Below, one piece after another: positions 91 to 32,172 of a stretch of DNA of 35,049 nucleotides (within the stretch, counting starts at the first letter, position 1; every line of letters starts with the position of its first letter). Below the pieces are notes generated by a model. It was given only the letters and a program-made list of their open reading frames with translations, made no database searches and was not told where the DNA came from. Origin of the DNA: Asterionella formosa. Its lineage: Eukaryota. The position numbers and the translations under genes are program-made. The stretch spans positions 1 to 35,049 of the forward strand of contig NKIB01000132.1 of assembly GCA_002256025.1 (NCBI GenBank), written 5' to 3'.

Positions 91-127
91 TACCAGGTAC
101 CATGGTACCGGTACCAGGTACCAGGTA
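91..127. repeat. Cluster of TA-CC(n)GG-TA units (GGTACC/ACCGGT-rich)
   Basis: Parses exactly as TA CCAGG TA CCATGG TA CCGG TA CCAGG TA CCAGG TA. Confidence 0.85.
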
Positions 128-333
128 GTTCAATGACAAGACAGCAACATCGCTCAAATTGCGGGAAAAACTAACTAATTCCCAAATGGGAATCATAATA
201 TTTCATTTATATAACTAGTCTAATAGAAATATTTTACTTTTTTTATAATGGTTTTGTCATCCTACGTCACAGTAGATGGGTGGTTGACAGCATTTAGGAT
301 TTCCCAAAAACAGATAGCATCGTTTTTTCGTCA

Positions 334-392
334 GTTGACCAAAACCAAAACCAATCCAAAAAAAAAGTTTTTGGGTTTTGGTTTGGGTCAAC
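334..392. repeat. Short imperfect inverted repeat / hairpin
   Basis: GTTGACCAAAACCAAAACC (334-352) pairs with GGTTTTGGTTTGGGTCAAC (374-392) with one mismatch; the loop is A/T-run rich. Confidence 0.75.
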
Positions 393-512
393 GGTTAGCA
401 ACGGCCTAACCAAGGTCGTTGAAAGGTTTTTTTTTCCTCCTGCTCGCTGATGACGGATAGCTTTCAGCCCTGCTTGGAAGTATGGCTATGTATGCGCTAT
501 ACGTATTTTATA

Positions 513-1938
513 AGCAATTCCCGCTCCAGCTATCGTCTTGCCATTCGGGTACTTCTAAGTAATTTTTAGGCTCTAAGTAATTTTTATTTAAGGGCAATAT
601 GGGGCACATCGAATTTTTCGGCAATAAAATTGCCGATTTTAGCATGACAACCAGAATAAAGGTAATATGCATAGAGATGGTACAACAAGCGTAAAACACA
701 CGAGAATGATTGTAACATGCCACATCAATGAAAATTGAGCATGATGTTTGGAGCAACCAAATTATGAAATGCAATGTGATAAGTAGCGTCAAATGAGAAA
801 TAGAAAAAATTGTTTTGGGTTAGAAATGAAGTAAAAAATAAGAGTTTCAATGGAGATGTATGCATTGTGACATTGTTAGTACTTACACAGGCAATTGAAT
901 TTCCAACACCACACAAGGGAAAAGCTGAACCCAATCTTGACCTGCATCATTGTGTAGTGTAGATCATCTGCTTGCTGTAACCATGCACATTGCTGTATCA
1001 ATCTGGCGCCGATTCCTTTTAAATTCAAATATTCAAATGGACACTTGAATCATGGGAATTCACAGTAGGAAACTCCCTGTTCCACGCTGTTTTTATAACC
1101 CTAGCGATATTTTCTCCAAACTAGGGTTAAGCCGGGGCTGCAACCTTAAACCATGCATGGTTGTTTTTAGTACTGGTACCCCGTATGTATGCAGACTAGA
1201 TGACTGCCGGTACCAGGGGTAATACCGGTAGAATATCCGTTAAGCATAATCACATGCATGACCAGAGCAAAAACTTGCCACCAACATCAGATGTATTGAT
1301 ATCATCATTTGTCCGACGAAATATGGATGATGCGACTACATGAATCCCTCGAGAATGCAAGAAAACCAACAACCAAACGCATCCGTTAGACAACGAATCG
1401 CTACTGGCATCATCGCAGAACTGATTTCGCTTCAAACCGGTCATGATGGACGACGATTGGCATGGTGAAAGGTGAATTGCCAGAGTCTACTTTTCAGGAG
1501 ATGAACAAAAACGAGGTGAATTCTAGATATAAATTATTAAAATCTGTATAGTATATTAAATGGTTTCCTTAAGTAGACCCCTTGCCGATTTCGGCAATCC
1601 CAGGGCTGGAAAACCGAGGGGCAATTGGTGTCTGTTGTCTTGCCAAAATGCGAACATATGAAATATACAAAATATATTCTAATGATGGGCAATATCGGAC
1701 CTTTGGCAATTTTCGAGCTGAAGATAGGAAATATACGAAATATATTTTATATGATGGGCAATAGTAAGCTAAAATTGACATTTATGTTTTATTTGTGGGC
1801 AGTTAGGTAAACGAATGACGCGATGATAGCTAGAGCGGTAATTGCCTCAACAATACCCTTCTCGGCGGCTACTTGCCTTCTCGTATACATGTGTACTCGC
1901 AGGCAAGAGACCACCTCGGGCGTGTATTGCCTTCAGCA
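513..1938 (+). mobile_element. Decayed inverted-repeat element, GGCAAT family, copy A
   Basis: About 25-bp inverted repeats: AGCAATTCCCGCTCCAGCTATCGTC (513-537) and GATGATAGCTAGAGCGGTAATTGCC (1822-1846). Three colinear blocks are shared with 16864-19180: 513-800, 1339-1495 and 1565-1938. Two ~69-bp-period subterminal repeats (..GAAATATAC.AAATATATT..ATGATGGGCAAT) lie at 1655-1763. Confidence 0.7.
996..1146 (-). mobile_element. Transposon end, AGGTT long-TIR family, copy 1
   Basis: Direct-repeat homology with 2184-2338. Ends in ...GCAACCT followed by TAA. Internal TAACCCTAG...CTAGGGTTA hairpin. Confidence 0.6.
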
Positions 1939-2183
1939 TGCTGTGGAAAGTGATCATCATTATCACTTACCGATTAGCTTGCATGGTAATTCTAGTATTT
2001 ATGTAGGAGTAATAGTCAAAAAAGGGGGCTTTGAAGTTTAAAAAATCTATGATACATAACTGCTCCTCTCCAGAAGTTAACTCCTGACATTTATAGGGTA
2101 CATGGCTATCTATTTTAATCTTCATGAAACCCTGAAGATGTAGATATAACACAAACATCTTCATTTGTTTTGAAATGGAACTC

Positions 2184-2338: not shown

Positions 2339-2375
2339 TTACGATACACTGTCTAATATATACTCTGTGATACTA

Positions 2376-3120: not shown

Positions 3121-4141
3121 CTCCTGCACAATTCAGGACTCCATCACAGGAGTCTTCCAGACAATCCAACGGAAAGCCATGAAGTTTGTCCACACTATAA
3201 ACTCAACCAGGAATCACCATTTTCTCAAACAATGATGATAATGGAGTAATGCCATCATTGACCTATGGTGTGTGTATACCATGCTAGATATACTCCATTA
3301 GATGATATAAGTCTTGCCTATATAATGTTAACCTTATAGGCTCTTCTATTCAGACTTTGTACTTGTTTTTACTCTCACTGTAGAGACTTACACATTCACA
3401 CCATGGTGTGTGTATATGTCAACTCAAGGTGTACCCTTGTTTTTACATTATACACACAACCAATGTGGTACCAGGTACCCTTCTCATCAAGGCTCTTGCG
3501 AGTACCCTTAACTATGAGCTAATGTAGATACCCCAATCATTAAGCTCATAATTCTTACCCAGAACCTCATTTTATCCTGACAACTGTAGGGCAATCACCA
3601 GATGATTTATCCAGTGGAGTCACTTAGAATCCTGGTAATTCATGATGACGTCCACCAATGCATGGGCATGATGACATGGTAATATGACAAGAACATCACC
3701 AGAAATTTGAGAAGCCATCATTGTCAACATGGTGTGTGGACCAAACATCATGCAAAACATCTTGGTGAAACAATCCAGCCATAATAGATCCAGTAATAAA
3801 TATTTCGTACAAAAGGAGACTAAGAATACCGGCACTACACCATGTTCAGTAGATAATACGTACTGGAAACATGTGAGTGAGCGAACAGCGAAGTCATCCC
3901 GACGACGATGATGAGCGAGGAGCGAGGGAGCATTCGCAATCTAATCGTTTCCTACATAAATATATATTATTAGCTATACATCATAAACAACGGATAATAG
4001 GCGTACCGGGTAGTATACCGGTACCAGTATTATTCATATACGACCAGTAAATATAATCACACTCCTATTACCGGTACTAATTGTAATAAACAAAGCAAGA
4101 ACAGAACCCCAACATCAAATCATCGAATACAACCGCCTACC

Positions 4142-5412
4142 ATGGTGAGCCAAATCTGAGTTTCTCTATTCATTCCAGTGACTTTGACTCGTAGCTCTAT
4201 GTTCACTTTCTTCTAACATTCATTTTTCGCTGCATCTTTGCGCTTAGCCTCCAGTTTTGGATCCTTCAAAGTCCAAAGTCGATGGCTTGGCCTTTTTAGG
4301 GCTATCACTGACCCGCCGCTCGGATAAGGGTCATCCCGACTCTATTACTCATCAGACAGCATTTGACCTTAACAAAGTCTTAGATCGAGACTATGAATTC
4401 CTTTTTTCAACCAATGATGATGGTTGGTTGGCAGGTGGCGGCGAGCCTGGACCTCCTGAATCGTACAAATTAGCCGCCAAAGATTCGTCGCATGTGGAAA
4501 TCATGAGAATTGGAACTTACCGACCAGAGTGGGGCGGAGTAGAAGAGAAGGATATCGTCGAGTGAGTATGTCAATGGGTTGCTGAAAAGAATAGTGGTTG
4601 AATCGTGATGAATGAATCGCCAGCTGACTCTATAGGTTGTTTTGTTCTCGTTGGACAGCGCCATTACATCTGGCAAAATTCTCATTCCTCAAATTGAAGT
4701 TTTACCAACTGCTGTCGTTGCCAATCCCGACAAACCGCCAGAGCTTGAAATAAGATTCGACATGGAACCAATGGTACCCAACTTTGATGATCTCTCCGCA
4801 CCTTTGCCCGTCAATTGGCAACTTCGCTTCATTCATAATCAGTTATTCAAGCATTTCAACTTTCCATCTCGATTCTGCCCAGGTGCATTTCATTCTACCA
4901 TATTGAGGAAGGCTGAGTTTCGATCTGAAAAGGTGAGTTATACGAAACCATACTCCTTAGCGGAAACCTTAGCGGAAAAATATTTTTCAACTCAGTTCTT
5001 ATTGACTTGCTTTCTTGCGCAAATCCCGCATAATCCTGTACATAAATAGCACCGACTTGGTTACTTTGCCAAGTGCAACGCTGCCATTCAAGCATGGAAG
5101 GCAGCTGGTCCTCAAGCCCTCAACAGTGGAGGATGGGATATCAAGGGCAAACTACTTGAAAACCCACCCAAATACATGTCTGGTATCTATTTGTTTGTGG
5201 ATCGCGAGAACATTACGCATTATTTCCCCCCGAACTTTGAACCGCCTTATGATACTCCCGAGAAGCGACAGATTATATTGGATTTTTTGCGCGAAGAATG
5301 GGATGAGAAAACGTTGAGCTGGAAGCCAGTATCAAGAAGTGGTCTTGACGGGCAGGCAGAAGCAATGCACCTCTTCGACGAAGTCGGCAAGCTGTTTTGT
5401 CATGGACGTTAG
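4142..5412 (+). CDS. Uncharacterised 317-aa protein, putative divergent 2H phosphoesterase fold; exons 4142-4144, 4248-4561, 4659-4932, 5050-5412
   Basis: Three GTGAG...AG introns (branch-like CTAAC at 4213, CTGAC at 4624) join the ORF-track fragments into one 954-nt frame. Motifs SSHVEIMRIG (H83) and AFHSTILRK (H184). Confidence 0.8.
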
Positions 5413-5573
5413 CAGCCTGATTGCTGGCGAATATTTTTGCTGGTCGTCTGCGAGTAGATACATATACCTAAGATATAGTGATCAATGCTTTCCCTTGATG
5501 TACGTTGTTTATGATACAATTCTTTCTCGATTATTAGAAATCTTACGAAGGCTACGATACTTTAAGTAGTTAG

Positions 5574-6671
5574 CTATTTTGAATGATCGGACTCGCCTGC
5601 TTCCTCTCTTGAACAGATGATCTGTACTTTCATGGTTGATCGCTCTGCGGCAAATTTGATGCCTTCATCCGCTTGTGTCAGCGGAAAGACTTTTGTAATG
5701 TACTTTTCAACATTCAGCGGCTTCATGTCATCCTTCAATTCCAGTAACTCCAACGCCTTGTCAATGGGTCCGCATCGACTTCCTACGATCTTGAGTTCAT
5801 GAATGACAAACGGTGCAGCATTGAATGGTTCACCTGCGGCGCATGTGCTTTTGAGAACTAATGTTCCCATGGGACGGCAAAGTTCAGAAGCGAGTGTCAG
5901 ACCAGCCGGACTACCGGTGGCTTCGACGACGACATCATACTTTGCAGCATGTTCAGCAGTGACACTGCCATTCTTTGCGTCCTTGGCTTCGTCGACCAGT
6001 CGACAATCCGCCCCGCTAGCCTTGACCATATCTAGTTTGTGTGGATGCTTTCCAAAGATAGTAACATTATTTCCATAGGCCCTTCCCAGTACTTCAGCAA
6101 TCATGAGTCCCAGCTTACCGTCGCCAAGAATAGCGACTTTATCTGTTTCCAGAATCAATCCTTGTTCTATAATCCTGCAGGCTGCAGCCAGTGGTTCAGC
6201 AAATACTGCCACTTCGTCAGACACATCCGATGGAACAACGTGTAGATTTCTTATGGGCAGAGTCAAATATTCTGCCATGGTACCATTCCGATTAAGTATA
6301 CCCAAGACGGTCCTGTGTGGACAGTGGTTCCGACTCATTTGACAAGGGCCGTGGGAATTTGCTTTATTGAGACATATCCCGCACACGTTACACCCAACAT
6401 TAATGTCTCCACAAACCCGCCTTCCTATCCACTCTATACTTGTTGAGTCTTTGTCGAATACATCTTCCACAATGCCCACAAATTCATGACCCAATACTCC
6501 CTGAAAGCCCATGTACCCCTGAAGGATTTCAAGATCCGTGTTGCAAACACCGGCTCGTAGGACACGAATCAATGCAAATCCCGGTTCGTCTAGTGTGGGT
6601 TTGGGAATGGTTTGGACACTTCCTGAGGAGCCGGAAACAACAAAGGCGAGCATGGTGTTTGAGGATGTCAT
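5574..6671 (-). CDS. Zinc-dependent alcohol/threonine dehydrogenase-like protein (MDR superfamily), 365 aa, intronless
   Basis: GVCNTD catalytic Cys, LGHEFVG motif, structural Zn cluster CxxCxxC...C, EPLAAA, Rossmann GDGKLG, LKST and GSRCGP. The ORF-track start at 6770 is TTG; the ATG at 6671 sits just before the domain. Confidence 0.92.
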   Translation of the reverse strand: MTSSNTMLAFVVSGSSGSVQTIPKPTLDEPGFALIRVLRAGVCNTDLEILQGYMGFQGVLGHEFVGIVEDVFDKDSTSIEWIGRRVCGDINVGCNVCGICLNKANSHGPCQMSRNHCPHRTVLGILNRNGTMAEYLTLPIRNLHVVPSDVSDEVAVFAEPLAAACRIIEQGLILETDKVAILGDGKLGLMIAEVLGRAYGNNVTIFGKHPHKLDMVKASGADCRLVDEAKDAKNGSVTAEHAAKYDVVVEATGSPAGLTLASELCRPMGTLVLKSTCAAGEPFNAAPFVIHELKIVGSRCGPIDKALELLELKDDMKPLNVEKYITKVFPLTQADEGIKFAAERSTMKVQIICSREEAGESDHSK

Positions 6672-7224
6672 GTGTCTATTCTGTGTTGGTCGAAAATATC
6701 TTGCTGATCTGCTATTTTTTGTTCTGTTGTGCATTACCTGGTGTAGCACGATGGTGCTCCCCCAATACAAATGTTACATCGGTATCACACCGGTATCACC
6801 TATGCTGTCTTTTCTACATTACCGGTATATTTTGCATTCTGTACTGCACAGTTCAATAATTTTACGTAGTATTAGACCACTGGTAAAACGGTACATAATA
6901 GACTACAGGTATCGCTATATATGATATCTTTCTTCATTTTTATGTATGAACAGACAAATGGACAATTTTTTGGCGCGCTTGCTATTGTTTTATCCATACA
7001 AGAAATTAGTGATCTATTTTACACAAATATATAAATAAATACGTATCACATCTTTTATACAAAGCTTATATTAGACTACTGCATAAAACTCTCCTACTAC
7101 CGTGTATATGTCATTATTTTCATCATAAAACTCACACACTCGTCAAGAAAGCATAGTCATCACTCCTATTCACTAGATCGCATTTGCCACCCCACCCCCC
7201 TCCTCATCCATCCCAACCAAACTC

Positions 7225-10831: not shown

Positions 10832-11253
10832 TATGGTGCCAGGTACCAGGGTATGGTACCAGGTACCTGGTCCCGGCAGATGTGTTGCGAGTGCAAGGAG
10901 GCAGGGGACACTCCGTACTTCCTCGCTACGTGGAAAATTCCTTATGTGTATCGTGCACAGACCTCGTTGTCTTTTTATCAAATACTCTTGCAAAATTCTC
11001 AGATAACCGCGCGTACCATTTCTTGAAAATTACGCGCGACTACCATTTCGTCGAATCGAGTTTGAGCTCTGATCAGGCATTAAACATCCACGGGCAATAT
11101 GAACATGTTTCCAGTCCACGGCTTGATAGCACACGGTATACGAGTGTCCGGTACCGGCACCTGGTACCTGGTACCAGGTGGAGTGCCAGGTACTCCGTAT
11201 CTAATCATTCAAACCCTCTAGCTGTAGTTACCCTGGTACATGGTACCTGGTAC
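10832..11253. repeat. Three TA-CC(n)GG-TA clusters upstream of the 596-aa gene (10832-10876, 11146-11192, 11229-11253)
   Basis: Examples: CCAGG TA CCAGGG TA TGG TA CCAGG TA CCTGG; CCGG TA CCGG CA CCTGG TA CCTGG TA CCAGG; TA CCCTGG TA CATGG TA CCTGG TA. Confidence 0.8.
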
Positions 11254-12652: not shown

Positions 12653-14272
12653 ATCATATCAACTATTTGCTTTTACTGTATACATTGAAAACCGAATAAT
12701 ATATTAACAAATATACTTTATGATTGATTTTTTCAATGATTATTGATAACATGTGTGTAAATATTTTATCCTGTTTTATTATCATTGCATTATTTTAACA
12801 TGATCATATTTTGATTAGAAGTATATCATAAACATTTTCATTATAGTTTTATGATCAATGTATCATAGCTATGTGACTAAAATTATTCAATATTACATAT
12901 CATATTTTGGTGATGTATGTATCGAAGTAGTCCTATCGTAATATCATATTATCATCTTATCAAAAATTCAATTTTGATTGCGAACTGTATACTGCATTGT
13001 ACTACCACGGAGTATGATATTATAACACGCACTGTAGTAACTAAGTACCGGTAACTGCTGTATTGTACACAAATCGACAGTGTATGATGTACACACAGGC
13101 TAAGCAGGTTTGAGGCAACAGACAGTTCCAATGAGTGAATGACGATACATTTACCAATCTTTCCAGCAGCAAAACACAATGATGAAGGACACTTGTCCCT
13201 TCATTGATGATGACACGGACACCGGCTTTTCCAGGAGCAAACAACAATGAAGAGAGCCACTTGTCGCTCTATCGATGGTAACAAAGATGCGGACAAGTTC
13301 AATAGTGAATACAAGAATAACATCCCAATGAAAATAAGTCTACAGTGCGTGTATGTACACGCTTATCAGGTTTGAGGCCACGGACAATTCCAACAAACAA
13401 ATGACGATACGGATATCAACTTTTTCCAGTGGCAAACCACAATGATAATGGTGAAGGTCATTCGTCCCTCTATTGCTGATGATATGGATACCGAGTTTTC
13501 CAGGAGCAAATTACAATAATGAGAGCCACTTGTCGCTCTATTGATGGAAATAAAGATGCAGACAAGTTCAACAGTGAATACAAGAACAACATTCCAAATG
13601 CGGAAACGAGTGGTACGAAAAAGGAATTGTAATCAGAATCATTTCATAACTATAACTATGTGGACAGCAGTCTGTTACATTTTCGTATCTCCTTCTAGCT
13701 ATTCTGAATCTCAATTGCAGATGTAGTATGTGAAAATTGAAAATGTCAACGAGAGCAAGGAATGTGTTTGTTATGAGTTGACTTGCTAGATTGTAATGCT
13801 GGTGGTTGACGAAATGGATTTAGCTACTGTGTGCGCTGTGTGCGGAACCATTCCGATTTTGTATGATTTCTTCTCTGTAAACTCTTAATTGACGAATGCT
13901 GATAATGAACATAGGATCACTTCACATGATGATAAATCAAAGATTTAATGATCAATTTACTGACAATTAAAGACGTTTTCGAAAACAATCATTCCACTCA
14001 TCATTGCCAGTATTTCGTCATTGTTGCAAAAATCGGCGTGAGGACTGATGACAATGAGCCAATGTATATTACTTTAGCTGGCTGGTACATTATCCTACCA
14101 AGAAATTTAAAAAAGGAGCCAAATAGAAAAAATACATATAATAATTAAATATTCATAGTCAACAGGGTTACTATTTAAATTACGAGGGCATTTATCAAAA
14201 TTATTAGATGATATAACGAAAAACGTATGATCAGATAATCATAATCCTATGATGCATCATAGAAAATATAGT
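12653..14272 (+). repeat. ~1.6-kb dispersed repeat with internal ~265-bp tandem duplication, copy 1
   Basis: Colinear with 25329-26872 from CATAT.AACT.TT.GCTTTTACTGTATACATT to TATGATCAGAT.ATCAT. AGAGCCACTTGTCGCTCTAT recurs at 13253 and 13522. Confidence 0.9.
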
Positions 14273-14718: not shown

Positions 14719-14972
14719 AAACTAGGGAAGCACACAGACTTGTTGGCAGGCCGTGCTATGAAGATCCACGTGTAACTTGCTCCGTGGTCTTAGTAGAAAG
14801 CGCGTTATAAGTGAGTTTCAGTTTAAAATTGGTACTTTAATCTACCGGTATCTACACTTGAATTCCGGTAATATAGGTGTATGGAATCTATATTTGTATG
14901 AGGAGCTGTCCAAAGAATGTTAAGCTTATATGTGCATCATTTTGATCACTGTGATCAGTTGTACACAGTGCC

Positions 14973-16050: not shown

Positions 16051-16863
16051 GATGATTGCAGGATCGTCAACAACACTTACTTCGATAACCATACGCTAAA
16101 CACCAGAAATTTTCACGAAATGTGATGCTGCTTTGAATGATTTACAAGAAATCGGGATACTATTTTGCTATAATCGTAGCAGGCCAAAAAAAGCTGGAAT
16201 TTATCAAGCAGGCATATGCTAGCTCCTCCGATACATCTGTGGGAGGTTTTCTCTATTTAGAAAAAATTCGGCTTCTCAGGCGCTACAATCCATTCTTTGC
16301 GACACTGCGTTGTATGGAAAATGGACGTCAGCTGCCTATATTGATGACCAAGTCGTGCACTTGAATGACGACAACATAATGATGATGGCACGCAACAAGA
16401 CAAGATAAACAATCAAAATTTCGGCTTTTCCATTGGCAAAAGGGATGAAAATTCAACTCAGGATGATGTTTGTGCAAGTTTCAGGCAAGTCAGCAAACAA
16501 CTGCGCAACATCAGCAGTTGGGACACTGAAACATTTTGAAGAATCAAACCGACGCGAAAATCTCGACCTGCACGAGGAGACAAGTCAAGGAGTCAGGCGC
16601 TTTGTTGAAGAATAGGGCGCATCCGTGAAAGCATATCATGCATTACACTGTTCTGCTGCTAACCATGTGCTTAAATATGTTGAACTGCTTCTCGAATTTG
16701 TTTCTCACAACAAGCAGCTATAAGCAATCAATGTCTCAAACGAATACATGGTGATCCCACTATAATGTGAACGCTTACAAACCATGGGGATCTGTCAATT
16801 CAAACTTTCGTGTCTGAAATTTTGATAAATTTGGGTGTAGTCACATCTGCTGTGAATTTCACT

Positions 16864-19380
16864 GGCAATCCCCATCCTAGCTATCGTCTTGCTTTCGATG
16901 AGAACTGTGGGTGTCTAAGTAGTTTTTGTATTTAGGGGCAACATGGGGCACAGTTGATTCTTCGGCAGTCAATTTTAGGTTTGAGCAGCAGGGACCATCA
17001 GGCAACGTCAGGAGTAGAGTTTTCAAGAGAAAAAGTTTCGACAATTCAAAAATGCATTGACCACCAAATATACCGGTACCGGTATATGCATGAAAAATAG
17101 TCACACAAGAATGATTGTAACAAGCATCGAAAATTCAACACGATGTCATTAATCTACCAAAGTATGAAATGGATATCGAAAGGTAAGACGTGAAAATGAC
17201 AAGCAGGGAGTAGAATAAAAAGTGAAAAAGAAAATGGGTCAGCGGAAAAATCATGTGAAATTTTGTCAACGCATATTCATGAACAATTATCAATTCACAC
17301 TTTTTTGTCGTTGCAACGACAAAATTTTTCAGATCGGGCCTGGAGGAGCAGAAACCGATGCCTGAATGGATTAAGAGGCAATGCTGGTTTCTGAAATGAT
17401 TTGGACTTGTGGTTGCGGAGGTGTTGGAGGAGCAACAGCTTGATAGCGGAGGTTTCTTGGTGCTGGCGGTGCAGAATTCTGGCAGTATCCGGCAGGAGGA
17501 GGAGCAGGATGCATCGAAAATTTACTGGCTGATGTGGACGTTTGTGAATTGGAAAATCGAGGAGGACAGTTTTGATCAGGTTGATAGGGAGCAATGGAGT
17601 GATGTGTTGTTGGTGCTGGCGAGATACGTTGCCCACATTGTTTGCGACCTGGAGACTTTGCAATCTACGTGCGAGTTTCGATGAAAGTGGCTTGCTAGCA
17701 TTGGGAAACAGGAAAAGAATAATGTTAGTGTGTGTAAATTATACCTCGTAAAACAACAATCAACTGGCAACATATTTCACCGCATTGGACAAGCTAGTTT
17801 GACCAGTGTATACTGATTTGTTGCATCGTCAGGAAGTGGAGGAGTACTAACATGAAAATAGCTTTTATCAAGGTTCTGAAGAGGGAGAAATACGTTTCAT
17901 AATTAGTATACTTGACCATGGCGGGAACTCAAATATGACAATAACCATCAACAAGCACCTACCTGTCCTCTCTTCCTTGTTGAATACGTGCGTGTTAATG
18001 CAGAACACCGGTTCCATCATGTTCCGGCTGCTTTGCGGAGTTTGCGATAGCTCATTGAGATTGACGACTTTTCGTTTGTCATTGCTGTAGAAGATTATGC
18101 AGAAGTAACAAAAGTAATATTGTGATTAGAAAGCAATGAAACAATGCTATCGTAGGGCAGCGTAAAAAAGCCAGCACGTGAGCACTAAAACTTGCTGCCG
18201 AGATCTGATTTGAGATAGTGAAGGACACGTAGAAAACATACTACAAAAATATAGTCAAAATTTAACGGCTGATCATTTCTGACGAAAATACCGGTTCAAT
18301 GGCGAGATGGAAGCCTAACTTTGACCTACCATAACGTTTTGAGTTTTGATACTCAACAACTGATTGATGTCGCTTTTGAACAATCATTAATTTATTTATC
18401 ACTACATATAAAATCTAGCGAAGGAATTGACCGGAAAGGCTATCGGAAATCAACAGAAAGAGGAACCGAAATTTTGGCGCCACTGTGACGAAGCAAGCAT
18501 GATGCAATGATATGAATCCCATAAGAAATCGAATTATCCAACAACCAGCCAGATCCATTTGATGAAGAGTCAGTAATTGAGACATCAATGACCAGATTTT
18601 GTATACATCAGAACATGCTGGAAGATAGCAGGGATGTAAATAGTGGAATTGCCATCGACACTTTAAAGAAAACTATCATTTTGTGCCTTCATGTAGCTCG
18701 CTCCTCCTACTCTCGTCCAATTTGGGCAGTCGATTTTCCTTAAGTAAACGGCAGTCAATTGAGGGGCTGTAGATATCAGTAATCAAATTCCCGTAAATAA
18801 ACGGCAGTCGATTTCGGCAATAAAATCTAGGGGCTGTTGAAAATATTGAAGGTAGTTTGGCAGTTCAAAAACGGAGCATATGAAATGTACAAAATATGTT
18901 TTATATGATGGGCAATTGAAGGATTGAGTAATCCAAAAACTGTACATATGAAATCTACAAAATATGTTTTATATGATGGGCAATTGGCTAGTTTGCATCC
19001 AACATACAAACTATCTAAAATAGGTTTTCAATGTTAACTTAAAGGGCAATGTAGTGGCGAAAAGCGCGCCGATAGCCGGCGCCACTCATTCGGTCAACCT
19101 ACTCACGCCTCTCAAGCCTCGAACACAAGAATACTCGCAGGCAGTCTCCACCCTCGGTCGTGTATTACCTTCAGCAATTCACAAACTAGCTACCGGTATC
19201 AGCGGGCTTTTCGCGACTAAATTGCAATTTCGGGTATCATTTAAAAACTATTTTAAATGGTTTGTATGTGGGATACAAACTAGCCAATTGCCCTTCATAT
19301 AAAACATATATTTTTTATTTCATATATGTATAGTTTTTGGATTACTCATTACTGCAATTGGCCTTCATATATAACATATC
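16864..19380 (+). mobile_element. Decayed inverted-repeat element, GGCAAT family, copy B, ending in a ~490-bp foldback
   Basis: Starts GGCAATCCCCATCCTAGCTATCGTCTTGC like copy A. Shared blocks at 16864-17200, 18511-18670 and 18733-19176. Long inverted arms 18893-19082 / 19189-19380. Confidence 0.7.
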
Positions 19381-19676
19381 GGATTCTTTCCACCTAGACT
19401 CATCTCATGTCACAACACGTTTGGAGGTGCTACTCAAGCCTTTTGGTGGCACAACACCTGCTGATGTGGCAATCTTGGAAGAATTAAATGATGAGGCACA
19501 AAACGGTCATTTGGAGTTATCTTGGTACGATGAAGACAAGGACAATGAGTTCAAAAACAAAGCCATGATGGGGAATAAAAAACCATCCTCACACTTTAGC
19601 AGGCTATATAAGGATGTTTGTACCTGGTAGCACAGTATCATGTTATGGTTTGGTGCTGCCACATGTGACCTTCTAT

Positions 19677-23730: not shown

Positions 23731-23901
23731 ACGGGTACCAGGGCTACCTGGTACCGTATTTCCTATTATGCATACCTGGTACCTGTTACCAGTAGGTCTA
23801 TGGTGGTCCAATGTGATGTAGCGACAAAATGACGTCAGCAAGGAGTGCTTTTGTTAAAAATTAATTACCGGTAGTAACCTACATGTACCGGTACATGGTA
23901 C
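23731..23901. repeat. TA-CC(n)GG-TA clusters upstream of VIP1
   Basis: GGTACCAGGGCTACCTGGTACCGTA, TACCTGGTACCTGTTACCAGTA, TACCGGTA, TACATGTACCGGTACATGGTA. Confidence 0.75.
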
Positions 23902-24264: not shown

Positions 24265-24981
24265 TCATGTATGATTTGGAAAAAGATTCAATTTTTTCTT
24301 CAAAGTTCGTTCCCAGCTCAGTGCATCAACTGCCTTAGCCAGCATCACATCTCTGTCTGCTGCATTTATCTTCTTGAATTTGAGGTCTTGATCTAGCTCA
24401 GACTTTTTCTTGAATATCTTTTCTTTTATAAATGCAATAGTTTCTCTGCTTTCATGATGTTCATCTTGATGTTCTGGACAAATAGTGAGACATATTTCTT
24501 GGTTATGCAACTTTTCAACCATTTCTACTTCAGAAGTGATGTATTCCACATTTCCGCCGGTATTTTCATTCATCGCATGAATTTGTTCATCAAATGAATG
24601 AGAATCACTGAGTTCTTCTTCATTATCAGCGATTTCAGGAGAATGAGGAGCAAAATACGACACTGCATGGAACTGTGCTTCTGTAGGAATAGAGTCTTCA
24701 TCTGCAAAGAACAACTGTTTGTGTTTACTCTTCGAAAGCAATCTTTCCTTCTTTTCAATCTCTGCCACTATTGTATCGGCATACTTCATTATTTTTTCCG
24801 GAGTACTATGAATCTGTTCAAATTCATCTGATCTTTGAGTGTATTCAAAGGAATCTTTGATTGATTTCATAGGTTTCTTCATCTTCTTTTCCGAAAACAT
24901 AAAGTCGTGTATTGTAAACAACAGAAGTAAGTCGTGTTTCTTGATTGACTGATCCATTCCATGAAATACATGAAATGCCAT
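24265..24981 (-). pseudogene. Unassigned ~238-codon K/E-rich ORF, probably a decaying gene or element relic
   Basis: Long open frame in AT-rich DNA. Protein-like sequence seems to continue in other frames past the stop (MKEKEFLCKIIENNPKGS*). No recognisable motif. Confidence 0.3.
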
Positions 24982-25328
24982 TTGGAAAGTTGTCAAAGGG
25001 CCAGAAGACTATGATGTAAAACAGTGGAGGGAAACGCGGAGCTTTTTGCGGCGCTTGTGGAGGTGCAACTGGTGTGATGGTAACCGAGTGTAGTAATTGT
25101 TGAACAGAGCACAGTGTAATATGCATGTTCCGCCAGCGTAGTGTTTACACAATACATATGCCAGTATATATAGCTATAAGAAGGAAAAAAGACACGAAGA
25201 TGAACGTGATGGCTGTTAGTTGAGGATACCGGTATGTGATATGCATCAATCCATGTCGCAAATCATATTATGGTGATGTACATATCAACGCATCCATATA
25301 CTTAGATCCTATCCGCTGTATAATACTG

Positions 25329-26872
25329 TCATATTAACTGTTGGCTTTTACTGTATACATTAAAAGTCGAATATATAAATTAAGTAACATACTTTATGAT
25401 CAATTCATTTATTTTCTATGATGTATTGATAACACTTGTGTACATATTTATCGTATTTTAGTATCATTGTATTATTTTAACATGATCATATCTTCCTCAT
25501 CAAAATTATCATATCATAACCATTTAAGAAAAGCATCATAGTTCTATGATCAATGCATCATAGCTATGTGATATACTTTATTCAATATTACATATCATAC
25601 TTTGGTGATGTATGCATCGATGTCACCCTATCATGATATCACATTATCATCTTATCAATCATTCAATGTTGATTGGGAACTGTATTCTGCATTGTACTAT
25701 GGAGTATGATATTATATCACGCACTTTAGTAGCTAAGTCACTCTTGTAATGTGGTACACAAGTCGACAGTGCACGTACACACACGCTAATCAGGTTTGAG
25801 GCAACAGACAGTGGTTCCAACGAAAGAATGACAATACGGGTGCCAATTTTTCCAGTGGCAAACCGCAATGATGAAGGACACTTGTCCCTCTATTGATGAG
25901 GATGACACGGACACCGACTTTTCCAGGAGCAAACAACAATGAAGAGACCCACTTGTCGCTCTATTGATGGTAACAAAGATGCGGACAAGTTCAACAGTGA
26001 ATACAAGAACAACATACCAATGAAAACAAGTCGACAGCGTGTGTACGCACACGCCAAACAGGTTCGAGGCAACGGACAGTTCCAACAAGCCAATGACAAT
26101 ACGGATATCAAATTTTTCCTATGAGCAAACAACAATGAAGAGAGCCACTTGCTGTCGCTCTCTTCACAGTATCAAAGATGCGGACAAATTCAATAGTTAA
26201 TTCAAGTTCAGCATGCCAAATTCAGAAACGAGCGAGCGATATGAAAAAGAAACTGTAATCAGAATCATTCTATAACTATTGCTATGTGGACAGTAGTCTG
26301 TTACATTTTCGTATCTCCTTCTATGCTGAATCTCAATAGTAGATGTAGTATCATGTGAGAATTGAAAATGTCAATGAGAACAAGTAGAATGTGTTTGTTT
26401 ACGGGTCGATTGGAGAGATTGTGATGCTGGTGGTCGACAAAACGGATTTACTATGTGCGCTGTATGCGGAATCATTATGAGTTTGAATGATTTCTTCTCT
26501 GTAAACTCTTAATTGAATGATTATGAACAAAGGTTCACTGCACATGACGATTACTCAAAGATAAAATGATCACTTGACCAACAATTGAAGACGTTATTGC
26601 AGGCAATCATTCCACTTGTCATCGCTAGTATTTCTTTGTTGTTGCAAAAATCGGAGTGATGACGGATGGAAATGACGAGCCAAATTACATTTTCTTTAGC
26701 TGGTACATTATCCTAAAATTCAAATACAGGAATCTAATAGAAACAATACATATAATAATTAAAAATATGTAGTCAAAAGGGTTACTATTTGAATTACAAG
26801 GGCATTTATCAAAATTATTAGATGAAAAAACGAAAAATTATGATCAGATGATCATGCATCATAGGAATATGA
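25329..26872 (+). repeat. ~1.6-kb dispersed repeat, copy 2
   Basis: Colinear with 12653-14272. It lacks one ~70-bp subunit of the second tandem unit. It may extend left to about 25233, where TATGTGATA..ATCATA..TGGTGATGTA is repeated. Confidence 0.9.
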
Positions 26873-27419
26873 TGGTTTTTATTTGCAGACGTATGTATCT
26901 AAATCGGCTTCAGACCCAGCCAACATTGAGCTATTGTTGTCCAAAAATTCGACAAAATCGACCTTTTCTACGGTCTCCAAAGAATTGGAATCAGAACCAC
27001 TTAGCGCCGAAACGTCATCATTGGAATGGTAGTACAGTACCGAAAATTTCATTCTTGTAAGTGCGCGCAGTATTATTATGCACTGATTGGCTATGGCGAA
27101 ATACTCGCCTCTGTTTGATAGCGCAAGTAACTGCAAACTTACACTGGCCACATTGGATACACATGTGACATTTCTTTGGGTGTACCGGTAAGCCGGTACC
27201 ATATCCAGTGCGGGGACCAGTGGATTATCATCATTGGAAATCATATGTGTGGTACCTGGTACCACTCGTTTATTGCACTTTCAAATATTTGCCAAGCCGT
27301 TGGGTTGTATATAAGAAAAATAATCGTTGGTACATATAGATACGGTGATGCACAATGTCTACATACACATTTAGCTATTCAAAAAGGAATCTATGTACAT
27401 ACGCGCAAATTTTCCACTG

Positions 27420-27544: not shown

Positions 27545-27547
27545 TAA

Positions 27548-28499
27548 GGCTGAAGCCAAGAAGCATAACATTTCACCATCAAGGAACTTAGACCAATCAA
27601 GAAACATTTAGGATTTTGGTATGACTGGGGAGCAGAGGATATTGGTGGAAGATTTCTTGAATCTGCTATGGAGGATTTCGTTGAAGGAATGTCTGAAGAT
27701 TATAAGAATCTCTTTGGACGTTTTCCCACAATTGCACCAGCTCCTGGATTACCAGGTACAAGTTTGTCCCAGAATGATGCGCACACTCTTCTACATAGTG
27801 AAAACTGATCCATCATGGTTGGAAAAATCCAATACTTTGTAAAGAAGATATCTCCAATTTGTGCCAATGCATGTCGAGAATTGTCTCAGCATTTGAAGAA
27901 TCCAGGAGAGGCTCATTGGAAGGCGGTTGAACGTCTGTTGGGATTCTTATATGCAGACAAGAAACATCAGCGTATGAAGATGCGAACCCTTAAAGAAATG
28001 TTCCCTATGGATGTTGCTGACAGTGCATTTGCAGTTAACCCTGATACTTTCAAAAGTACAAGTGCATATCTCAGAACTATTGGAGCACGCTCCTTGGTGA
28101 CTTGGCTAGTTATCCAAAGGACAGAACATTGTAACTACATCAAGGACAGAAGCTGAGTATGTCAGCCTAAGTGACGGTGTCAAGGATACTACATTTGTTA
28201 CAAATCAATTGGACGAGGTCTACTAGGCAGTATGTGAAACTGCCAGCAATAATCGCTGAGGATAACACAGGAGCGATTTTCCTAAGCAAAAACCAACAAG
28301 TTGGATCAAGGACAAAGCAAATTGATATCAGTTATCATTTTATACATGAGAAGACTGAAGATGGATATGTTATTGTGGTCTAGCTATGCACATGTTGTGA
28401 TCTGCTTTCAAAGAATGTAACTCAGAAAAAAGTGCATGAGTTGCATGCATGTAATATTTGCAATGGGACAATTGATTGTTGGAACTGGAGCAGGGAGGA
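27548..28499 (+). pseudogene. Decayed Ty1/copia pol 3' part (RT C-terminus and RNase H) with polypurine tract
   Basis: FTIKELRPIKKHLGFWYDWG; VGKIQYFVKKISP..ANACRELSQHLKNPGEAHWKAVERLLG; DSAFA..DTFKSTS; TEAEYVSLS; EDNTGAIFLSKN..RTKQIDISYHFI; DLLSKN. PPT GGAGCAGGGAGGA at 28487-28499. Confidence 0.92.
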
Positions 28500-29375
28500 T
28501 GTCAAGAGCTGCGTGCATATTAGTTCAGTCGAACTAATAAATCTTGAATAATATTAAATTTTCCAGCCACAATTCCGTATTGAAATGCTGTGAGAATTTG
28601 AACAGCATTGATTGCCAAGAACTATATCAGCAAACCAAGGTAAATATTCGAATGGAGAATTTTCTAAGTAATCAATATTTCAATGAAGGAAAGGTATATA
28701 TATAGCTATACAATGCAGATAGCATTGAATATTCACGATTGTCCTACTAAGTGAGTGGAGTTGAGTTGTTTTGCTTCAGTTGAGAATTGAATGCCTAACA
28801 ACCCAATAAATATCTTTATACGAATTTGGGAAGAGAACCTTAATAATTGGTCATGTGAACGATTTCAAGACAGATCAAATAAGCTCACAATAAGTTGGGA
28901 TTAGAACAGAAAGCTTTAATACACTGAGCTTGCCTAGAAAATAGCTAGCATTGCAGTCAGACTGCAGAAGAATTTAACAATCACTTATTGTTAAATCGTT
29001 TTGATTGGTTGGTTTGATAGGGGAGGATTGTGCCTGATGTCTGTAGACTGAGGGCACTTCTTTACAGATAAAAAAATAAAAAAATGTTGCTTGGCCAAAT
29101 TTTTCTTATCTCACATATCCGGGTGATATGTTGCTGGAAGCGACATACTTTTTGTTGCTCCGAAATGTGTATCTGTGTGTATCGCTGCAGATACAGCGTT
29201 AAGAAACACAAATTTTATAAATTTAATATATGTTATGTAATTAAATTAATCAGCAAAGACACCATTTTTATCTCTAATGGCAACAATGAATTTTGGGAGG
29301 AGGGATTGCTTCTCAGCAGCAATTATTATTATCTCTAGCTACTACTCATGGAATAATGCTTTTCATCACTTGTAA

Positions 29376-30170
29376 ATGACTTCCGCAATGGCATCAATTG
29401 AATCTTCAGACAATGAAATTTACTCTGCAGCAAGGAAACAGGATGACCAGTGGGTTGCAAGTATCACTCCTGCTGATTTTTTCATTGTCAACGAAGTGTC
29501 TTTGACGACGATAGAAGACTGCTCATTCAACAGATATCGCTACAACGACTTCGTCGTATTTGCGTTCACTTTAAAATCGCCTGATACAGATACAGAAGCA
29601 AAACAAAGATGATAACGATTGCACTCATTAAGAATTCTTGGTTAAAGAATCTTGATCTTCGAGACATGATGGGGTCCAACAAAAAGTCATCGAAAAACCA
29701 AATTAGTATCTGAAAAGAAACGGCACTCCCTTTACTCCTGAATCATCAACAAGGAAGGCTCCTCGCCTACTGCTATCAAAGCAACTTTCTACTATCAGAG
29801 AAGATATTGCTAATGACTCAAGTACAGATTCCGAATTATCTCCTTCCCAATTGTCTGCATTTCCGTCTCCAGTTCCTGCTGATTTTTTATTGGATGACGA
29901 TTCTGAAAGATCCCACCAGATTATTAAGAAACAGCGATGACCTCCCAAGAATCAGAGGAAAAGAAATGCTGCAACTACTCCCAAATATATTAAGAAGCAT
30001 GGCACATACTATCGAGTAATTAATATCTTCTTCGATGAGAAACATCGGCAAGATATTTTTTGTCTTGGGAATACTCCAACTATATGTGAGTTGGATGCAA
30101 GGAAATTTCCCAATAAAGCACTTTGGGATAAGTTATTGGATACCTACATTGACATAGACAATGAGACATA
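29376..30170 (+). pseudogene. Second Harbinger ORF (putative DNA-binding partner protein), disrupted
   Basis: Frame-shifted protein-like blocks LRRICVHFKIA.YRYRSKTKM and GTYYRVINIFFDEKHRQDIFCLGNTPTICELDARKFPNKALWDKLLDTY. Lies inside the TIRs opposite the transposase, as expected for two-ORF Harbingers. Confidence 0.55.
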
Positions 30171-30849
30171 TAATGCTCAGACCAATATGCTTGAGGGAAG
30201 CCATCACAATCCTTTTTTCTTGCTTTATCAATAGGCTGTAAATATCCATCTATGGCACCAATGCATCTACGAAATAGTTGCTGCTCGCTTCTTTCAAGAA
30301 ATCCATTTCATCACTGTTTCTTTCTCCTTGTTTGTTGTAGGGGAATTTTATTGATAATGCTGTGCAGGAGTTCACCACATCAAGGGATGTTTTAGTTATG
30401 ACACAAACAGATGGATAAGAAACTGCATAGACATGACAAATGTCTATGAGTTTTCCGCCTGCAAGCCAGCGAAGTCCGATGGCAAGGATCAACTCAGGAT
30501 AAATATGCTGATTTGAGCTGTAAACACCGGAACTTGCATTTGATTTAACAACATTAGCTGTGATGGAAGGTCGAAGGAGTTCCAGTAGTTGATTGAAAGC
30601 TTCAAGAGACATGTGATATTCACGATGAAATCTATTCTCATGAAGAAGCTTTGTGACATGCTCATTCCATTCAATTTGTTGATGCTCCCATTTTGGAATT
30701 TGCACTGGCTTCGAGTTTTGTTCATAGGACTCCAAAGATGATAAAGCAGCTGCTGCAATAAACAAAAAGCTCAGTTATTCTGCTGCTACATCAAGATTGT
30801 CAATGACATCCCAGTTGTCAGGTTCTTCCAGTCGATTTGTCATTGTCAT
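30149..30849 (-). pseudogene. Harbinger/HARBI1-like DDE transposase, N-terminal half
   Basis: FHREYHMSLEAFNQLLELL..IYPELILAIGLRWLAGG..DICHVY (HTH region). After a frameshift comes LFRRCIGAIDGYLQPI..YWSEHY (first catalytic Asp, GAIDG). In-frame stop at 30775-30777; remainder deleted. Confidence 0.88.
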
Positions 30850-32172
30850 TACAGTAATGACAACAATGGTCAGACACATTGAATAATTGAAGCGCACATT
30901 GCAAATATTTTTGCTGAGTCTGATGCACATGTTTGCAGAGACGTAAAGAAAATGGCTAACTGTTTTGCTGTTACAGAGATATATTTGTGAAATTAAATTC
31001 TGTAAAGATTTTTTTTTGAAGATACAACAAAACAAATGTATCTCTAAGATTGGCCCTTAAGCCAGAAAAGAGATTTTGAGTTTGGAGAGAATTATTAAAG
31101 CAATGTAAGCAAGACTTGCGTACTTTGCATACAGAAACCTTTACTTTTGCGTCAAGCCGCCCCTCTATTGCCCGGTCATTGTTGTGTTTTCTTGACATTT
31201 CCCTGTTATGAAAAATAAAATTAGCATAAAAACCTAGTACGTCACTAAGTGGTGATCACCATGCGTACTGACGATTTTAAAGAGTGAATTGATTTTTTTC
31301 TATGTAAATAGACGCCTGTCCTGCGTCACATCATGAATTTCAGCAAAATGACCGCAATTGCTGGTTCATCTAACATATGTTTCAGAGCATCGCCACCTTG
31401 CAAAATGTGGTTGGCTTACTGTAAATAAATAATTTAATATAGGACAAAGAGAGCTAAGGTTTTAGTTTTAGCACAATTACCGGTACCGCAACTTGCTCAT
31501 CGACAAAAGGAAAGCCAATTTAGGTTTCGGGTCATTACACGTCACAATGCTTCACGTTCTTGGCTTGTTTTGATTGGCGAGAAAGCAAAATATTTTTTTG
31601 CCACCACCACCACATCGACCAAGACCAACTTTTCTTTCCTCTTATTTCGTCCACTTGGCTGACAATGACCCCCTTTTATCGACCAAAGCTATACTGGTAG
31701 TTTATAAAGGAATTTGGTCGGTTAGACTCCGACATCATCCAAAAAGAGAAGCGTTCTATTATATTCCTAGGTTGTGCTCGCGCCTGAACTATAATGTCTC
31801 TGGTTTTATCACCAAGATGACTTTGCAAACACCATAATCTCGTCATGAAGACAAAAATGTATTGCATTTAACCAGGTAGAACCAGTGACTTTTGAATATA
31901 CCGGTCATAGATTCTACATACCTAATAAAGGAATACATTTGCTCTTGGCGGCCGTTAAATGACTTTGTTCCCGGCCGCCGGTATAAGAAAAGCGATGGTT
32001 GTTCTTGCGAGAAACATCAGTACCGGGAGGGTCAACTTTGTCAGGAGGTCATTGATTGATGAACAAGTCGGTTGAAGAAATACCTGTAGAGATAGTCTCT
32101 CCATCATCCTAGCGACGCAAACATACAACCATTCCAGTCTTTATTGTCCCGGCTTTAGCCGTCGCCTACTAC

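What the first reader, a model, noticed from the sequence alone, without database searches (positions are those of the whole stretch)
91..31485. Pervasive TA-CC(n)GG-TA motifs that parse as stacked transposon excision footprints
Seen: the exact 8-mer TACCGGTA occurs at least 17 times by eye (106, 1223, 4016, 4069, 6820, 11317, 11455, 13046, 14843, 17071, 17077, 19191, 23866, 23886, 25227, 27183, 31478). Fewer than one is expected from base composition, and none lies in a called CDS. Clusters decompose into TA-separated cores CCGG, CCAGG, CCTGG and CCATGG. Paralog comparison shows the motif behaves as an insertion at TA: 13041 CTAAGTA[CCGGTA]ACT vs 25733 CTAAGTCACT, and 19186 CTAGCTA[CCGGTA]TC vs C(T/C)AGCTATC in the other TIR copies. 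Known: Tc1/mariner elements duplicate TA and leave a few terminal nucleotides on excision (e.g. TACATGTA for Tc1). Inference: an element with CC(A)...(T)GG ends has repeatedly jumped in and out of TA sites. Each footprint creates a new TA target, building palindromic arrays mostly near gene 5' ends. Such arrays would record accessible chromatin and could seed cis-regulatory sequence.
Basis: partly seen in the sequence, partly recalled or inferred. Interest (0 to 1): 0.72.

Follow-up and report, generated by a model that had tools for sequence, protein, structure and literature searches.

The report
Pogo transposon scars crowd algal promoters
An eight-letter palindrome found about once every 2,500 bases in this alga's non-coding DNA is best read as the scar left when a resident cut-and-paste transposon jumps out, and these scars pile up in front of genes, where they can be mistaken for gene-control signals.

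Summary
In detail: all 17 TACCGGTA sites are present (0.34 expected), none in a coding region, and the motif is genome-wide.

In repeat paralogs it behaves as a 6-base insertion at a single TA, not as a tandem duplication. I found likely donors: two pogo (Passer-like, DD35D) families that end TA|CCGTA, one with near-identical copies. Their CCG ends account for the cores CCGG, CCG/CGG and CC(C/G)GG.

The CC(A/T)GG cores are a partly separate, array-forming class whose origin stays open.

Within 500 bp upstream of ORFs, CCGG is 4-fold and CC(A/T)GG about 24-fold denser than downstream. The same 8-mer was published as a candidate transcription-factor site in Phytophthora.

A far commoner scar also appeared: a duplicated dinucleotide around G, C or GC, with no source found.

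No locus was seen both with the element and with the scar. The scan reported this motif before on other pieces of this genome (at least 8 notes), and the GC scar once.

The parts
91..127 (.). Stack of five units between TA dinucleotides: CCAGG, CCATGG, CCGG, CCAGG, CCAGG
   Evidence: no homolog among fetched loci
1211..1230 (.). TACCGGTA at 1223, ancestral in its repeat family, preceded by a 12-base insertion (CCAGGGG-type unit) that only this copy has
   Evidence: 7 homologs lack the 12 bases
3469..3477 (.). Isolated TA-CCAGG-TA in a GG|TA…TA|CC context
   Evidence: no usable homolog
4004..4076 (.). CCGGG unit (4004) and two CCGG scars (4016, 4069) 70-140 bases upstream of a + strand gene starting near 4141
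   Evidence: contig of run X3 spans 3950-6484 with 0 gaps
6820..6827 (.). CCGG scar between divergent genes (zinc-binding dehydrogenase on -, Cdc27-domain gene on +)
10844..10865 (.). CCAGGG plus CCAGG stack upstream of the - strand gene ending at 10632; one 7-base unit is absent from the 94% identical contig C11894 and is not a tandem duplicate of its neighbours
11148..11252 (.). GGTACC-rich stacks (CCTGG at 11165 and 11244, CCCTGG at 11229); 20 bases of the first stack are absent from C11894
11317..11462 (.). Two CCGG scars (11317, 11455), shared with C11894
13046..13053 (.). Derived CCGG insertion in repeat family X; most homologs read TC at the empty site
   Evidence: 19 of 28 TC
14843..14850 (.). 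CCGG scar, shared with C11894
17071..17084 (.). Double CCGG unit ancestral in repeat family Y; other copies show CpG decay
   Evidence: 11 of 29 homologs identical, several TACCAGTA or TACTGGTA
19191..19198 (.). Clean derived TA to TA-CCGG-TA insertion in a family Y end, shared with two other copies (one decayed to CTGG)
   Evidence: (19 of 21 TA)
19621..19629 (.). Isolated TA-CCTGG-TA
23745..23893 (.). CCTGG units (23745, 23773), CCGG scars (23866, 23886) and one TACATGTA (23880) upstream of the PPIP5K-like gene on the - strand
25227..25234 (.). CCGG unit ancestral in repeat family X
   Evidence: 13 of 19 homologs identical
27183..27261 (.). CCGG at 27183 (1 of 2 homologs empty) and CCTGG at 27253 (inside a 10-base insertion absent from both homologs)
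27750..27758 (.). TA-CCAGG-TA inside a degenerate retroelement-like stretch (label recalled; no Pfam hit)
31478..31485 (.). CCGG scar about 650 bases upstream of a protein kinase gene
13821..13826 (.). Example of the second scar class: TA-GC-TA, derived 4-base insertion
   Evidence: 25 of 27 homolog alignments lack it
17845..17849 (.). Second scar class: TA-C-TA, derived 3-base insertion
   Evidence: 32 of 34 homolog alignments lack it
18083..18087 (.). Second scar class at a non-TA site: TG-C-TG, derived 3-base insertion
12653..14265 (.). Partial copy of repeat family X (second copy 23905-26891), used as substrate for the filled/empty test
16861..19379 (.). Repeat family Y modules with long inverted ends, used as substrate for the filled/empty test

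Best explanation
TACCGGTA is the end-joining scar of resident Passer-like pogo transposons. Shown: these elements insert at TA, duplicate it and end in CCG…CGG; the 6-base insertion CCGGTA appears de novo at TA sites. Inferred, from how Tc1/mariner-type transposases cut: excision leaves three element bases (CCG) as a 3' overhang on each donor end. The terminal CG dinucleotides anneal and give TA-CCGG-TA. Keeping one overhang gives TA-CCG-TA or TA-CGG-TA, and a one-base mismatch joint gives CCCGG or CCGGG. Scars then decay at their CpG to TACCAGTA or TACTGGTA. The elements favour gene 5' regions, so scars collect in promoters. The CC(A/T)GG and CCAGGG units are a related but distinct class. They are seeded at a low rate, possibly by copies whose end has decayed to CCA or by an added A, and grow next to existing GG|TA|CC sites by duplication, fold-back or repeated insertion. 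That last step is not resolved.
For: Filled/empty sites: plain TA in 19 of 21, 24 of 25, 20 of 23, 10 of 11, 23 of 31 and 21 of 23 homologs at six sites. Of 48 independent derived 6-base insertions, 9 are CCGG at TA and 2 more are CTGG; 3 of 41 five-base insertions are CCG/CGG at TA. Donors: 93 DDE_1 matches. Family B has nine copies 99.1-100% identical, 109 ends genome-wide against 4 for the control and DD35D spacing. Family C has the same CCGTA end. TA duplication is confirmed by empty paralogous sites. Spectrum in 380 kb: CCGG 150 (2.8 expected), CCG/CGG 50 (25.9; includes element ends), CCCGG/CCGGG 11 (1.0). Among one-mismatch neighbours the CpG transition has 94 counts against 4-23 for the others. 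Shared targeting: 8 CCGG scars in 3.4 kb of DNA flanking 34 family B ends (2.35/kb, p about 0.001 against 0.58/kb). Scars are 1.77/kb upstream, 0.42/kb downstream and 0.27/kb in repeats. Fish Passer TIR oligos begin TACCGTA (PMC9976928 supplement). That paper reports 0-4 bp footprints and a bias to gene 5' ends.
Against: No locus was seen both with the element and with the scar; the empty paralogs found show plain TA. About 27,000 scars (extrapolated) against about 109 family B ends is a very high ratio. At 13046 and at one CCWGG site the homologs read TC, not TA. CCG ends do not give CCWGG directly, yet CCWGG is as common as CCGG (139 against 150). Family A (CAG ends, 7 ends seen) leaves only a weak TA-CAG/CTG-TA excess (70 against 55). 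The enrichment beside family B ends fades by 300 bp (p 0.03) and is not significant for family C. CCG/CGG cores at two sites coincide with CCGG sites in sister copies, so they could be one-base deletions. The Passer footprint sequences are in a figure I could not see.
Confidence: 0.8

Rival explanations
1. One reading: one element with CCA…TGG ends produces CCGG, CCWGG and CCATGG by variable trimming, and stacks arise only because each scar offers a new TA.
For: CCA-ended pogo copies exist here (41 of 45 non-G hits, control 5), and one metagenomic relative has CCA at both ends (L240). Of 139 CCWGG sites, 35 cannot be copied from either flank (18 free, 17 with GG or CC only). Ten of 33 adjacent CCWGG pairs are in opposite orientation.
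Against: CCATGG occurs once in 380 kb. The young family ends in CCG. A CCA end is paired with a CCG end in L181. CCWGG has GG/CC neighbours in 121 of 139 cases against 29 of 150 for CCGG. No Tc1 (DDE_3) match was found. The mariner profile also found nothing, but its controls were silent, so that search is uninformative.
Confidence: 0.1
2. The motifs are selected transcription-factor sites, as proposed for TACCGGTA and TACATGTA in Phytophthora; point mutation and selection create and keep them in promoters.
For: Strong 5' bias, above all for CCWGG (57 upstream against 2 downstream). The identical 8-mer is motif M94 in P. infestans promoters (PMC3597505), and a similar motif is reported upstream of Plasmopara genes (PMC10031896).
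Against: The motif arises as a whole 6-base insertion inside transposon-like repeats and decays freely at its CpG. Arrays differ by whole units between 94% identical copies. This rival can still hold as later co-option; it fails as an origin.
Confidence: 0.05
3. No transposon is involved: breaks at TA are repaired with a fixed templated or untemplated insert, or palindromic GGTACC sites grow by slippage and fold-back alone.
For: 104 of 139 CCWGG sites are compatible with duplication or fold-back. Same-orientation neighbours are in excess (23 against 10). One of three derived CCWGG events is a perfect 7-base tandem duplication (L052). The genome has another stereotyped insertion class with no source found.
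Against: 121 of 150 CCGG sites have no GG or CC neighbour, and derived CCGG insertions copy nothing nearby. The inserted bases equal the ends of resident TA-targeting elements. This rival is plausible for growth of the CCWGG arrays but not for CCGG.
Confidence: 0.05

Closest known systems
Excision footprints of IS630-Tc1-mariner elements (Tc1 TACATGTA as cited in PMC3520976; Sleeping Beauty TAC(A/T)GTA and Mos1, recalled)
   Same: Duplicated TA around a few terminal bases of the element; single TA at the empty site.
   Different: Known mostly from assays and single alleles. Here the scar is a fixed, heritable feature at about 0.4 per kb genome-wide and 1.8 per kb in promoters, with CpG-decayed older layers and stacks.
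Passer family of pogo transposons (PMC7386202, PMC9976928)
   Same: DD35D, DDE_1 domain, short TIRs beginning CCGTA, TA duplication, known in stramenopiles, experimental bias to gene 5' ends, 0-4 bp footprints.
   Different: Placement against Fot-like elements (also DD35D) was not tested and the DNA-binding domain was not recovered. A genome-wide footprint load was not found in the papers I searched.
Oomycete promoter motifs M93/M94 (PMC3597505) and motif-1/motif-9 (PMC3520976, PMC10031896)
   Same: The identical palindrome TACCGGTA, abundant in promoters of a stramenopile.
   Different: Those papers read them as transcription-factor sites. PMC3520976 rejects a footprint origin for TACATGTA because of its conservation and abundance, and PMC3597505 has no mention of transposons in its main text. 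Here filled/empty sites and a donor point to a scar. Whether that holds in oomycetes is untested.
Microsatellite-like arrays grown by slippage (general knowledge)
   Same: 7-base GGTACC(A/T) units vary in number between close copies.
   Different: Units are seeded de novo, mix orientations and core types, and sit almost only upstream of genes.

Membership tests
ITm (Tc1/mariner/pogo) excision footprint | Duplicated TA in the filled state, single TA in the empty state | tested here: met
   window 19191 clean, 13046 needs a prior TC to TA change
ITm (Tc1/mariner/pogo) excision footprint | Core equals the terminal bases of a resident element (CCGG, CCG/CGG, CCSGG) | tested here: met
   Families B and C end CCG…CGG; spectrum
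ITm (Tc1/mariner/pogo) excision footprint | Core equals the terminal bases of a resident element (CCWGG, CCAGGG) | tested here: inconclusive
   CCA ends exist but may be decay; strong flank dependence
ITm (Tc1/mariner/pogo) excision footprint | Resident TA-targeting element with TIRs and an open DDD transposase frame, recently mobile | tested here: met
ITm (Tc1/mariner/pogo) excision footprint | Same locus seen with the element in one allele and the scar in another | tested here: inconclusive
   Flanks of 43 ends searched in fetched loci; homologous sites found for 12 showed no scar; read overlay swamped by repeats
ITm (Tc1/mariner/pogo) excision footprint | Scar produced in an excision assay | not testable with these tools
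   Needs a bench test
Passer (pogo, DD35D) | DD35D catalytic spacing | tested here: met
   Invariant D148, D266, D302 in alignment A1
Passer (pogo, DD35D) | Short TIRs and TA target duplication | tested here: met
   TIRs about 22-30 bp beginning CCGTA, as in fish Passer oligos
Passer (pogo, DD35D) | BrkDBD / HTH_Tnp_Tc5 DNA-binding domain | tested here: inconclusive
   Not found in the 5'-open frame of L012 or in L153; BrkDBD in 3 of 109 homologs
Passer (pogo, DD35D) | Phylogenetic grouping with Passer rather than Fot-like | not tested
   No named reference set at hand
Transcription-factor site (oomycete M94 type) | Enrichment upstream of genes | tested here: met
Transcription-factor site (oomycete M94 type) | Positional conservation across species, protein binding, reporter activity | not testable with these tools
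   No related genomes held
Slippage microsatellite | New unit duplicates adjacent sequence (CCGG) | tested here: not met
Slippage microsatellite | New unit duplicates adjacent sequence (CCWGG) | tested here: inconclusive
   73 of 139 duplication-compatible, 35 not templated by either flank; 10857 not a duplication

The most novel reading that the evidence does not exclude
In this lineage, cut-and-leave scars are the main source of small insertions. Pogo scars write tens of thousands of TACCGGTA words into promoters and seed self-growing GGTACC(A/T) arrays that have become regulatory sequence. The abundant oomycete 'promoter motifs' TACCGGTA and TACATGTA have the same origin. A second, undescribed element or break-repair process that duplicates any two bases around G, C or GC makes up roughly 45% of short insertions in repeats.
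Probability: 0.25. Interest if true: 0.82.

Novelty: new variant of a known kind. Interest (0 to 1): 0.6.

Why it matters
Excision footprints are usually treated as rare single-locus traces. Here one footprint is the most over-represented 8-mer of the window and among the top in the genome sample, and it concentrates in promoters. It would record past transposon traffic far beyond what surviving copies show and mark where the element lands. It also gives a testable alternative for the abundant stramenopile promoter palindromes TACCGGTA and TACATGTA, which are published as candidate transcription-factor sites. Motif-discovery studies in these organisms may be picking up scars, or scars that were later co-opted. 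The unexplained G/C/GC scar class points to an unidentified mobile element or repair signature with an even larger share of small insertions.

Tried and rejected
1. Read overlay of runs X3, X6, X7 and X19 on 3950-23940. It was swamped by repeat contigs; only 12 of 151 indel rows were shown, none at a motif. X3 contigs cover 4016, 4069, 11317 and 11455 without gaps. Another X3 contig (6455-10939) is 7 bases shorter, but the place is not shown, so I claim nothing from it.

2. Tc1 profile: no match. Mariner profile: no match, with silent controls.

3. Young PIF/Harbinger family (at least 150 DDE_Tnp_4 matches) as source of the G/C/GC scars. Rejected: in 4 of 4 copies the end begins GGG after TAA or TTA.

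4. Families X and Y as that source: ends and target duplications could not be fixed. A general TIR search was too noisy and its output was cut.

5. Co-occurrence test in 80 metagenomic pogo loci. CCGTA ends are common across the clade, but contigs are short; 14 TACCGGTA in 169 kb is uninformative.

6. Pure fold-back rule for the CCWGG centre. Rejected: the centre is A or T even when the templating base is C or G (35 of 35 non-array cases). Pure slippage is rejected by 10 opposite-orientation pairs.

7. CCWGG as CpG decay of CCCGG/CCGGG. Rejected: the partner product CCCAG/CTGGG is rare (6 against 139).

8. The reciprocal count of CTG-type decayed ends could not be run.

9. Literature searches found no paper on genome-wide pogo footprints in diatoms. 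The library lacks most subscription papers.


Full report
SETTING. The window is one whole contig (C132) of a 68.4 Mb eukaryotic assembly in 15,436 contigs. It has compact intron-bearing genes and the stretch occurs in freshwater and algal samples. Earlier scan notes call the organism a diatom. I did not test that beyond a 34% identical transposase homolog from Amphora, so 'diatom' is a likely label only.

1. OBSERVATION. All 17 listed TACCGGTA positions are exact. TACCAGGTA and TACCTGGTA occur 6 times each and TACCATGGTA once. The expectation for TACCGGTA is 0.34 (order-2 Markov), and none of the 30 motifs lies in my seven approximate coding intervals. TACCGGTACCGGTA occurs 593 times in the genome against 5 for the control; part of that is inherited inside repeat family Y.

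I took 38 stretches of 10 kb (380 kb). They are not random: they come from long contigs seen in earlier hit lists, mostly placed away from the hits. Counts between two TA, with expectation in brackets: CCGG 150 (2.8), CCAGG/CCTGG 139 (3.2), CCAG/CTGG 94 (13.7), CCAGGG/CCCTGG 18 (0.6), CCCGG/CCGGG 11 (1.0), CCG/CGG 50 (25.9). CCATGG occurs once. Extrapolated, that is about 27,000 TACCGGTA sites, probably an overestimate because long contigs are gene-rich.

2. IT IS AN INSERTION AT TA. Of 234 distinct motif instances in the first 420 kb of loci, 92 had homologs. Some are ancestral in their family (window 17071/17077, 25227; 1223). Others are derived: plain TA in 19 of 21 homologs (window 19191), 24 of 25 (L079), 20 of 23 (L080), 10 of 11 (L034), 23 of 31 (L096) and 21 of 23 (L122). 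Window 13046 is derived, but its homologs mostly read TC (19 of 28).

A motif-blind catalogue gave 618 independent derived insertion sites of 2-20 bases. A site needed at least 4 covering alignments and the same gap in at least half of them, and 1,022 raw events were merged for shared descent. Nine of 48 six-base insertions are CCGG at TA, two more are CTGG, and 3 of 41 five-base ones are CCG/CGG at TA. None copies adjacent sequence. The merging dropped some sites seen, so these are lower counts. Against the 93-95% identical contig C11894, the CCGG sites at 11317, 11455, 13046, 14843 and 17071 are shared, while two CCWGG stacks differ by 7 and 20 bases.

3. THE DONOR. A DDE_1 search gave 93 matches. 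Family B has nine copies 99.1-100% identical over about 1.95 kb at different sites, 109 ends genome-wide against 4 for the control, and full and internally deleted copies bounded by TA|CCGTA…TACGG|TA. Its catalytic spacing is DD35D. Family C has the same terminal CCGTA, and its empty paralogous sites show a single TA. Family A ends in CAG. Among 80 metagenomic relatives, CCGTA ends recur throughout; six TA-flanked pairs begin that way and one begins CCATA. Fish Passer TIR oligos begin TACCGTA (PMC9976928, supplement rows).

4. MECHANISM. The steps shown are TA targeting, TA duplication, CCG ends and de novo CCGGTA insertion. The inferred step rests on established knowledge of Tc1/mariner cleavage, recalled: the non-transferred strand is cut 2-3 bases inside the element. 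Two CCG overhangs can anneal through CG and give CCGG; two CC overhangs joined end to end give the same. CCG/CGG and CCSGG cores favour three bases, but two of the three CCG/CGG events coincide with CCGG sites in sister copies and could be deletions. Scars age by CpG transition: 94 counts against 4-23 for other one-mismatch neighbours, with direct examples in paralogs.

Position was measured on 83 non-repeat ORFs of at least 200 codons, used as a proxy for genes. CCGG is 54 in 30.5 kb upstream, 11 in 26.3 kb downstream (p 1e-6), 23 in 85 kb of repeats and 1 in 125 kb of ORFs. Living family B copies sit near scars: 8 in 3.4 kb within 100 bases of 34 ends (p 0.001), weaker at 300 bases (p 0.03) and not significant for family C. 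Passer has a measured bias to gene 5' ends in human cells (PMC9976928 passages).

5. THE CCWGG CLASS IS DIFFERENT. 121 of 139 sites have GG before or CC after, against 29 of 150 for CCGG. Of the 139, 48 fit duplication, 31 fold-back, 25 both and 35 neither. Adjacent pairs are 23 same and 10 opposite in orientation, and the centre is A or T whatever the flanking base. Upstream bias is extreme: 57 against 2. The three derived events in repeats are one tandem duplication, one fold-back-compatible and one untemplated at a TC site. CCA-ended pogo copies exist (41 of 45 non-G hits, control 5), but one copy pairs CCA with CCG, which suggests decay. I therefore accept scar seeding plus local amplification at moderate confidence (about 0.5) and leave selection in promoters open.

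6. A SECOND, LARGER SCAR CLASS. Of 107 three-base insertions flanked by an exact two-base duplication, 102 have C or G as the new base (background 38%, p 4e-36). Only 2 of 93 perfect three-base duplications lack C or G (22 expected), and 93 of 121 four-base insertions with a duplication of at least two bases allow the core GC. Any dinucleotide is used; TA is favoured (31 against 8 expected). Longer cores GAC, GCC, GACC and GGCC occur. Counting most perfect three-base duplications in, this is roughly 45% of the 618 sites, against about 2% for CCGG. TAGCTA shows no 5' bias. The young PIF/Harbinger family is not the source. Candidates, all inference: an element with G…C ends and a 2-base duplication; a C…G-ended element excising through hairpins; or staggered breaks with an added G. 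An earlier scan note (e1-7565080) saw the GC form.

7. COMPARISON WITH WHAT IS KNOWN. It works like a canonical ITm footprint and meets the testable features for CCGG; direct excision was not seen. The donors look like Passer (PMC7386202 passages: DD35D, TA duplication, present in stramenopiles), but Fot-like elements also have DD35D and I built no tree. TACCGGTA is motif M94 among 'high-confidence' promoter motifs of Phytophthora infestans (PMC3597505 passages). PMC3520976 (passages) considered and rejected a footprint origin for TACATGTA. PMC10031896 (passages) reports ATACCGGTAT upstream of 206 Plasmopara genes. I also saw passages of PMC4122938 and PMC7325037; other papers only as search listings. 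Nine searches found no description of genome-wide pogo scars in diatoms. Figures were not visible, including Passer's footprint sequences, and most subscription papers are missing.

8. EARLIER SCAN NOTES. At least eight notes on other pieces of this genome reach the same footprint reading. They are not independent evidence. My reading was recorded before I saw them; several call the donor unfound and one calls it pogo-type.

VERDICT. The feature is real. This is a new variant of a known kind, notable for its scale, its promoter bias and its bearing on published oomycete motifs. Interest 0.6.

Noticed in passing
Repeat paralogs genome-wide; window examples 13821, 16491, 17845, 18083: Stereotyped insertions XY+(G, C, GC, GAC, GCC, GACC, GGCC)+XY at any dinucleotide: 102 of 107 one-base cores are C or G; roughly 45% of derived short insertions; source not found.
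   Followed up: partly
G000 C191, C358, C584, C13060 (L228-L231) and many more: Very young PIF/Harbinger family: about 39 equal-scoring copies in the hit list, with a GGG end after TAA or TTA in 4 of 4 copies read.
   Followed up: partly
L004:297-2628: Pogo family A with TA|CAGTG ends; only a weak TA-CAG/CTG-TA excess in the sample and one derived CAG insertion.
   Followed up: partly
L096:1748 with L089:1684; L108:1599 with L113:1599: The same repeat position carries CCGG in some copies and CCG/CGG in others: either independent excisions from a duplicated insertion or a later one-base loss.
   Followed up: no
Family B and C inverted repeats (L012, L153): Both TIRs contain CCTGG internally, and the family C left subterminal region contains CCCTGGTA; templated repair from the TIR could supply CCWGG and CCCTGG cores. 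Speculation, untested.
   Followed up: no
window 10552-19802 against contig C11894 (L175): A 93-95% identical copy of a large part of the window (allele or segmental duplicate), lacking window 11555-12005.
   Followed up: partly
window 12653-14265 and 23905-26891: High-copy repeat family X (summed contig depth up to about 400 times single copy in run X3) with a CGTCTGC end; a related subfamily has this end on both sides (L159, L171); class unknown.
   Followed up: partly
window 513-1940 and 16861-19379: Modular repeat family Y with long inverted ends and hairpin-like spacers; some left ends begin with TATACCGG; class unknown.
   Followed up: partly
window 14955-15750, 27750-28500, 30250-30774: Degenerate copia-like reverse transcriptase/RNase H fragments and a PIF-like transposase fragment; labels recalled, no Pfam hit.
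   Followed up: no
window 8827-10632 (-): 601-codon ORF with three 27-residue N-terminal repeats and three copies of a roughly 140-residue domain; no Pfam family.
   Followed up: no
L223 (C358:1360-1520): A family X copy with a stacked CCGGG + CCGG unit, near a PIF insertion.
   Followed up: no
380 kb sample: Long poly-C/poly-G runs are the top raw k-mer excess; possibly an assembly artefact.
   Followed up: no
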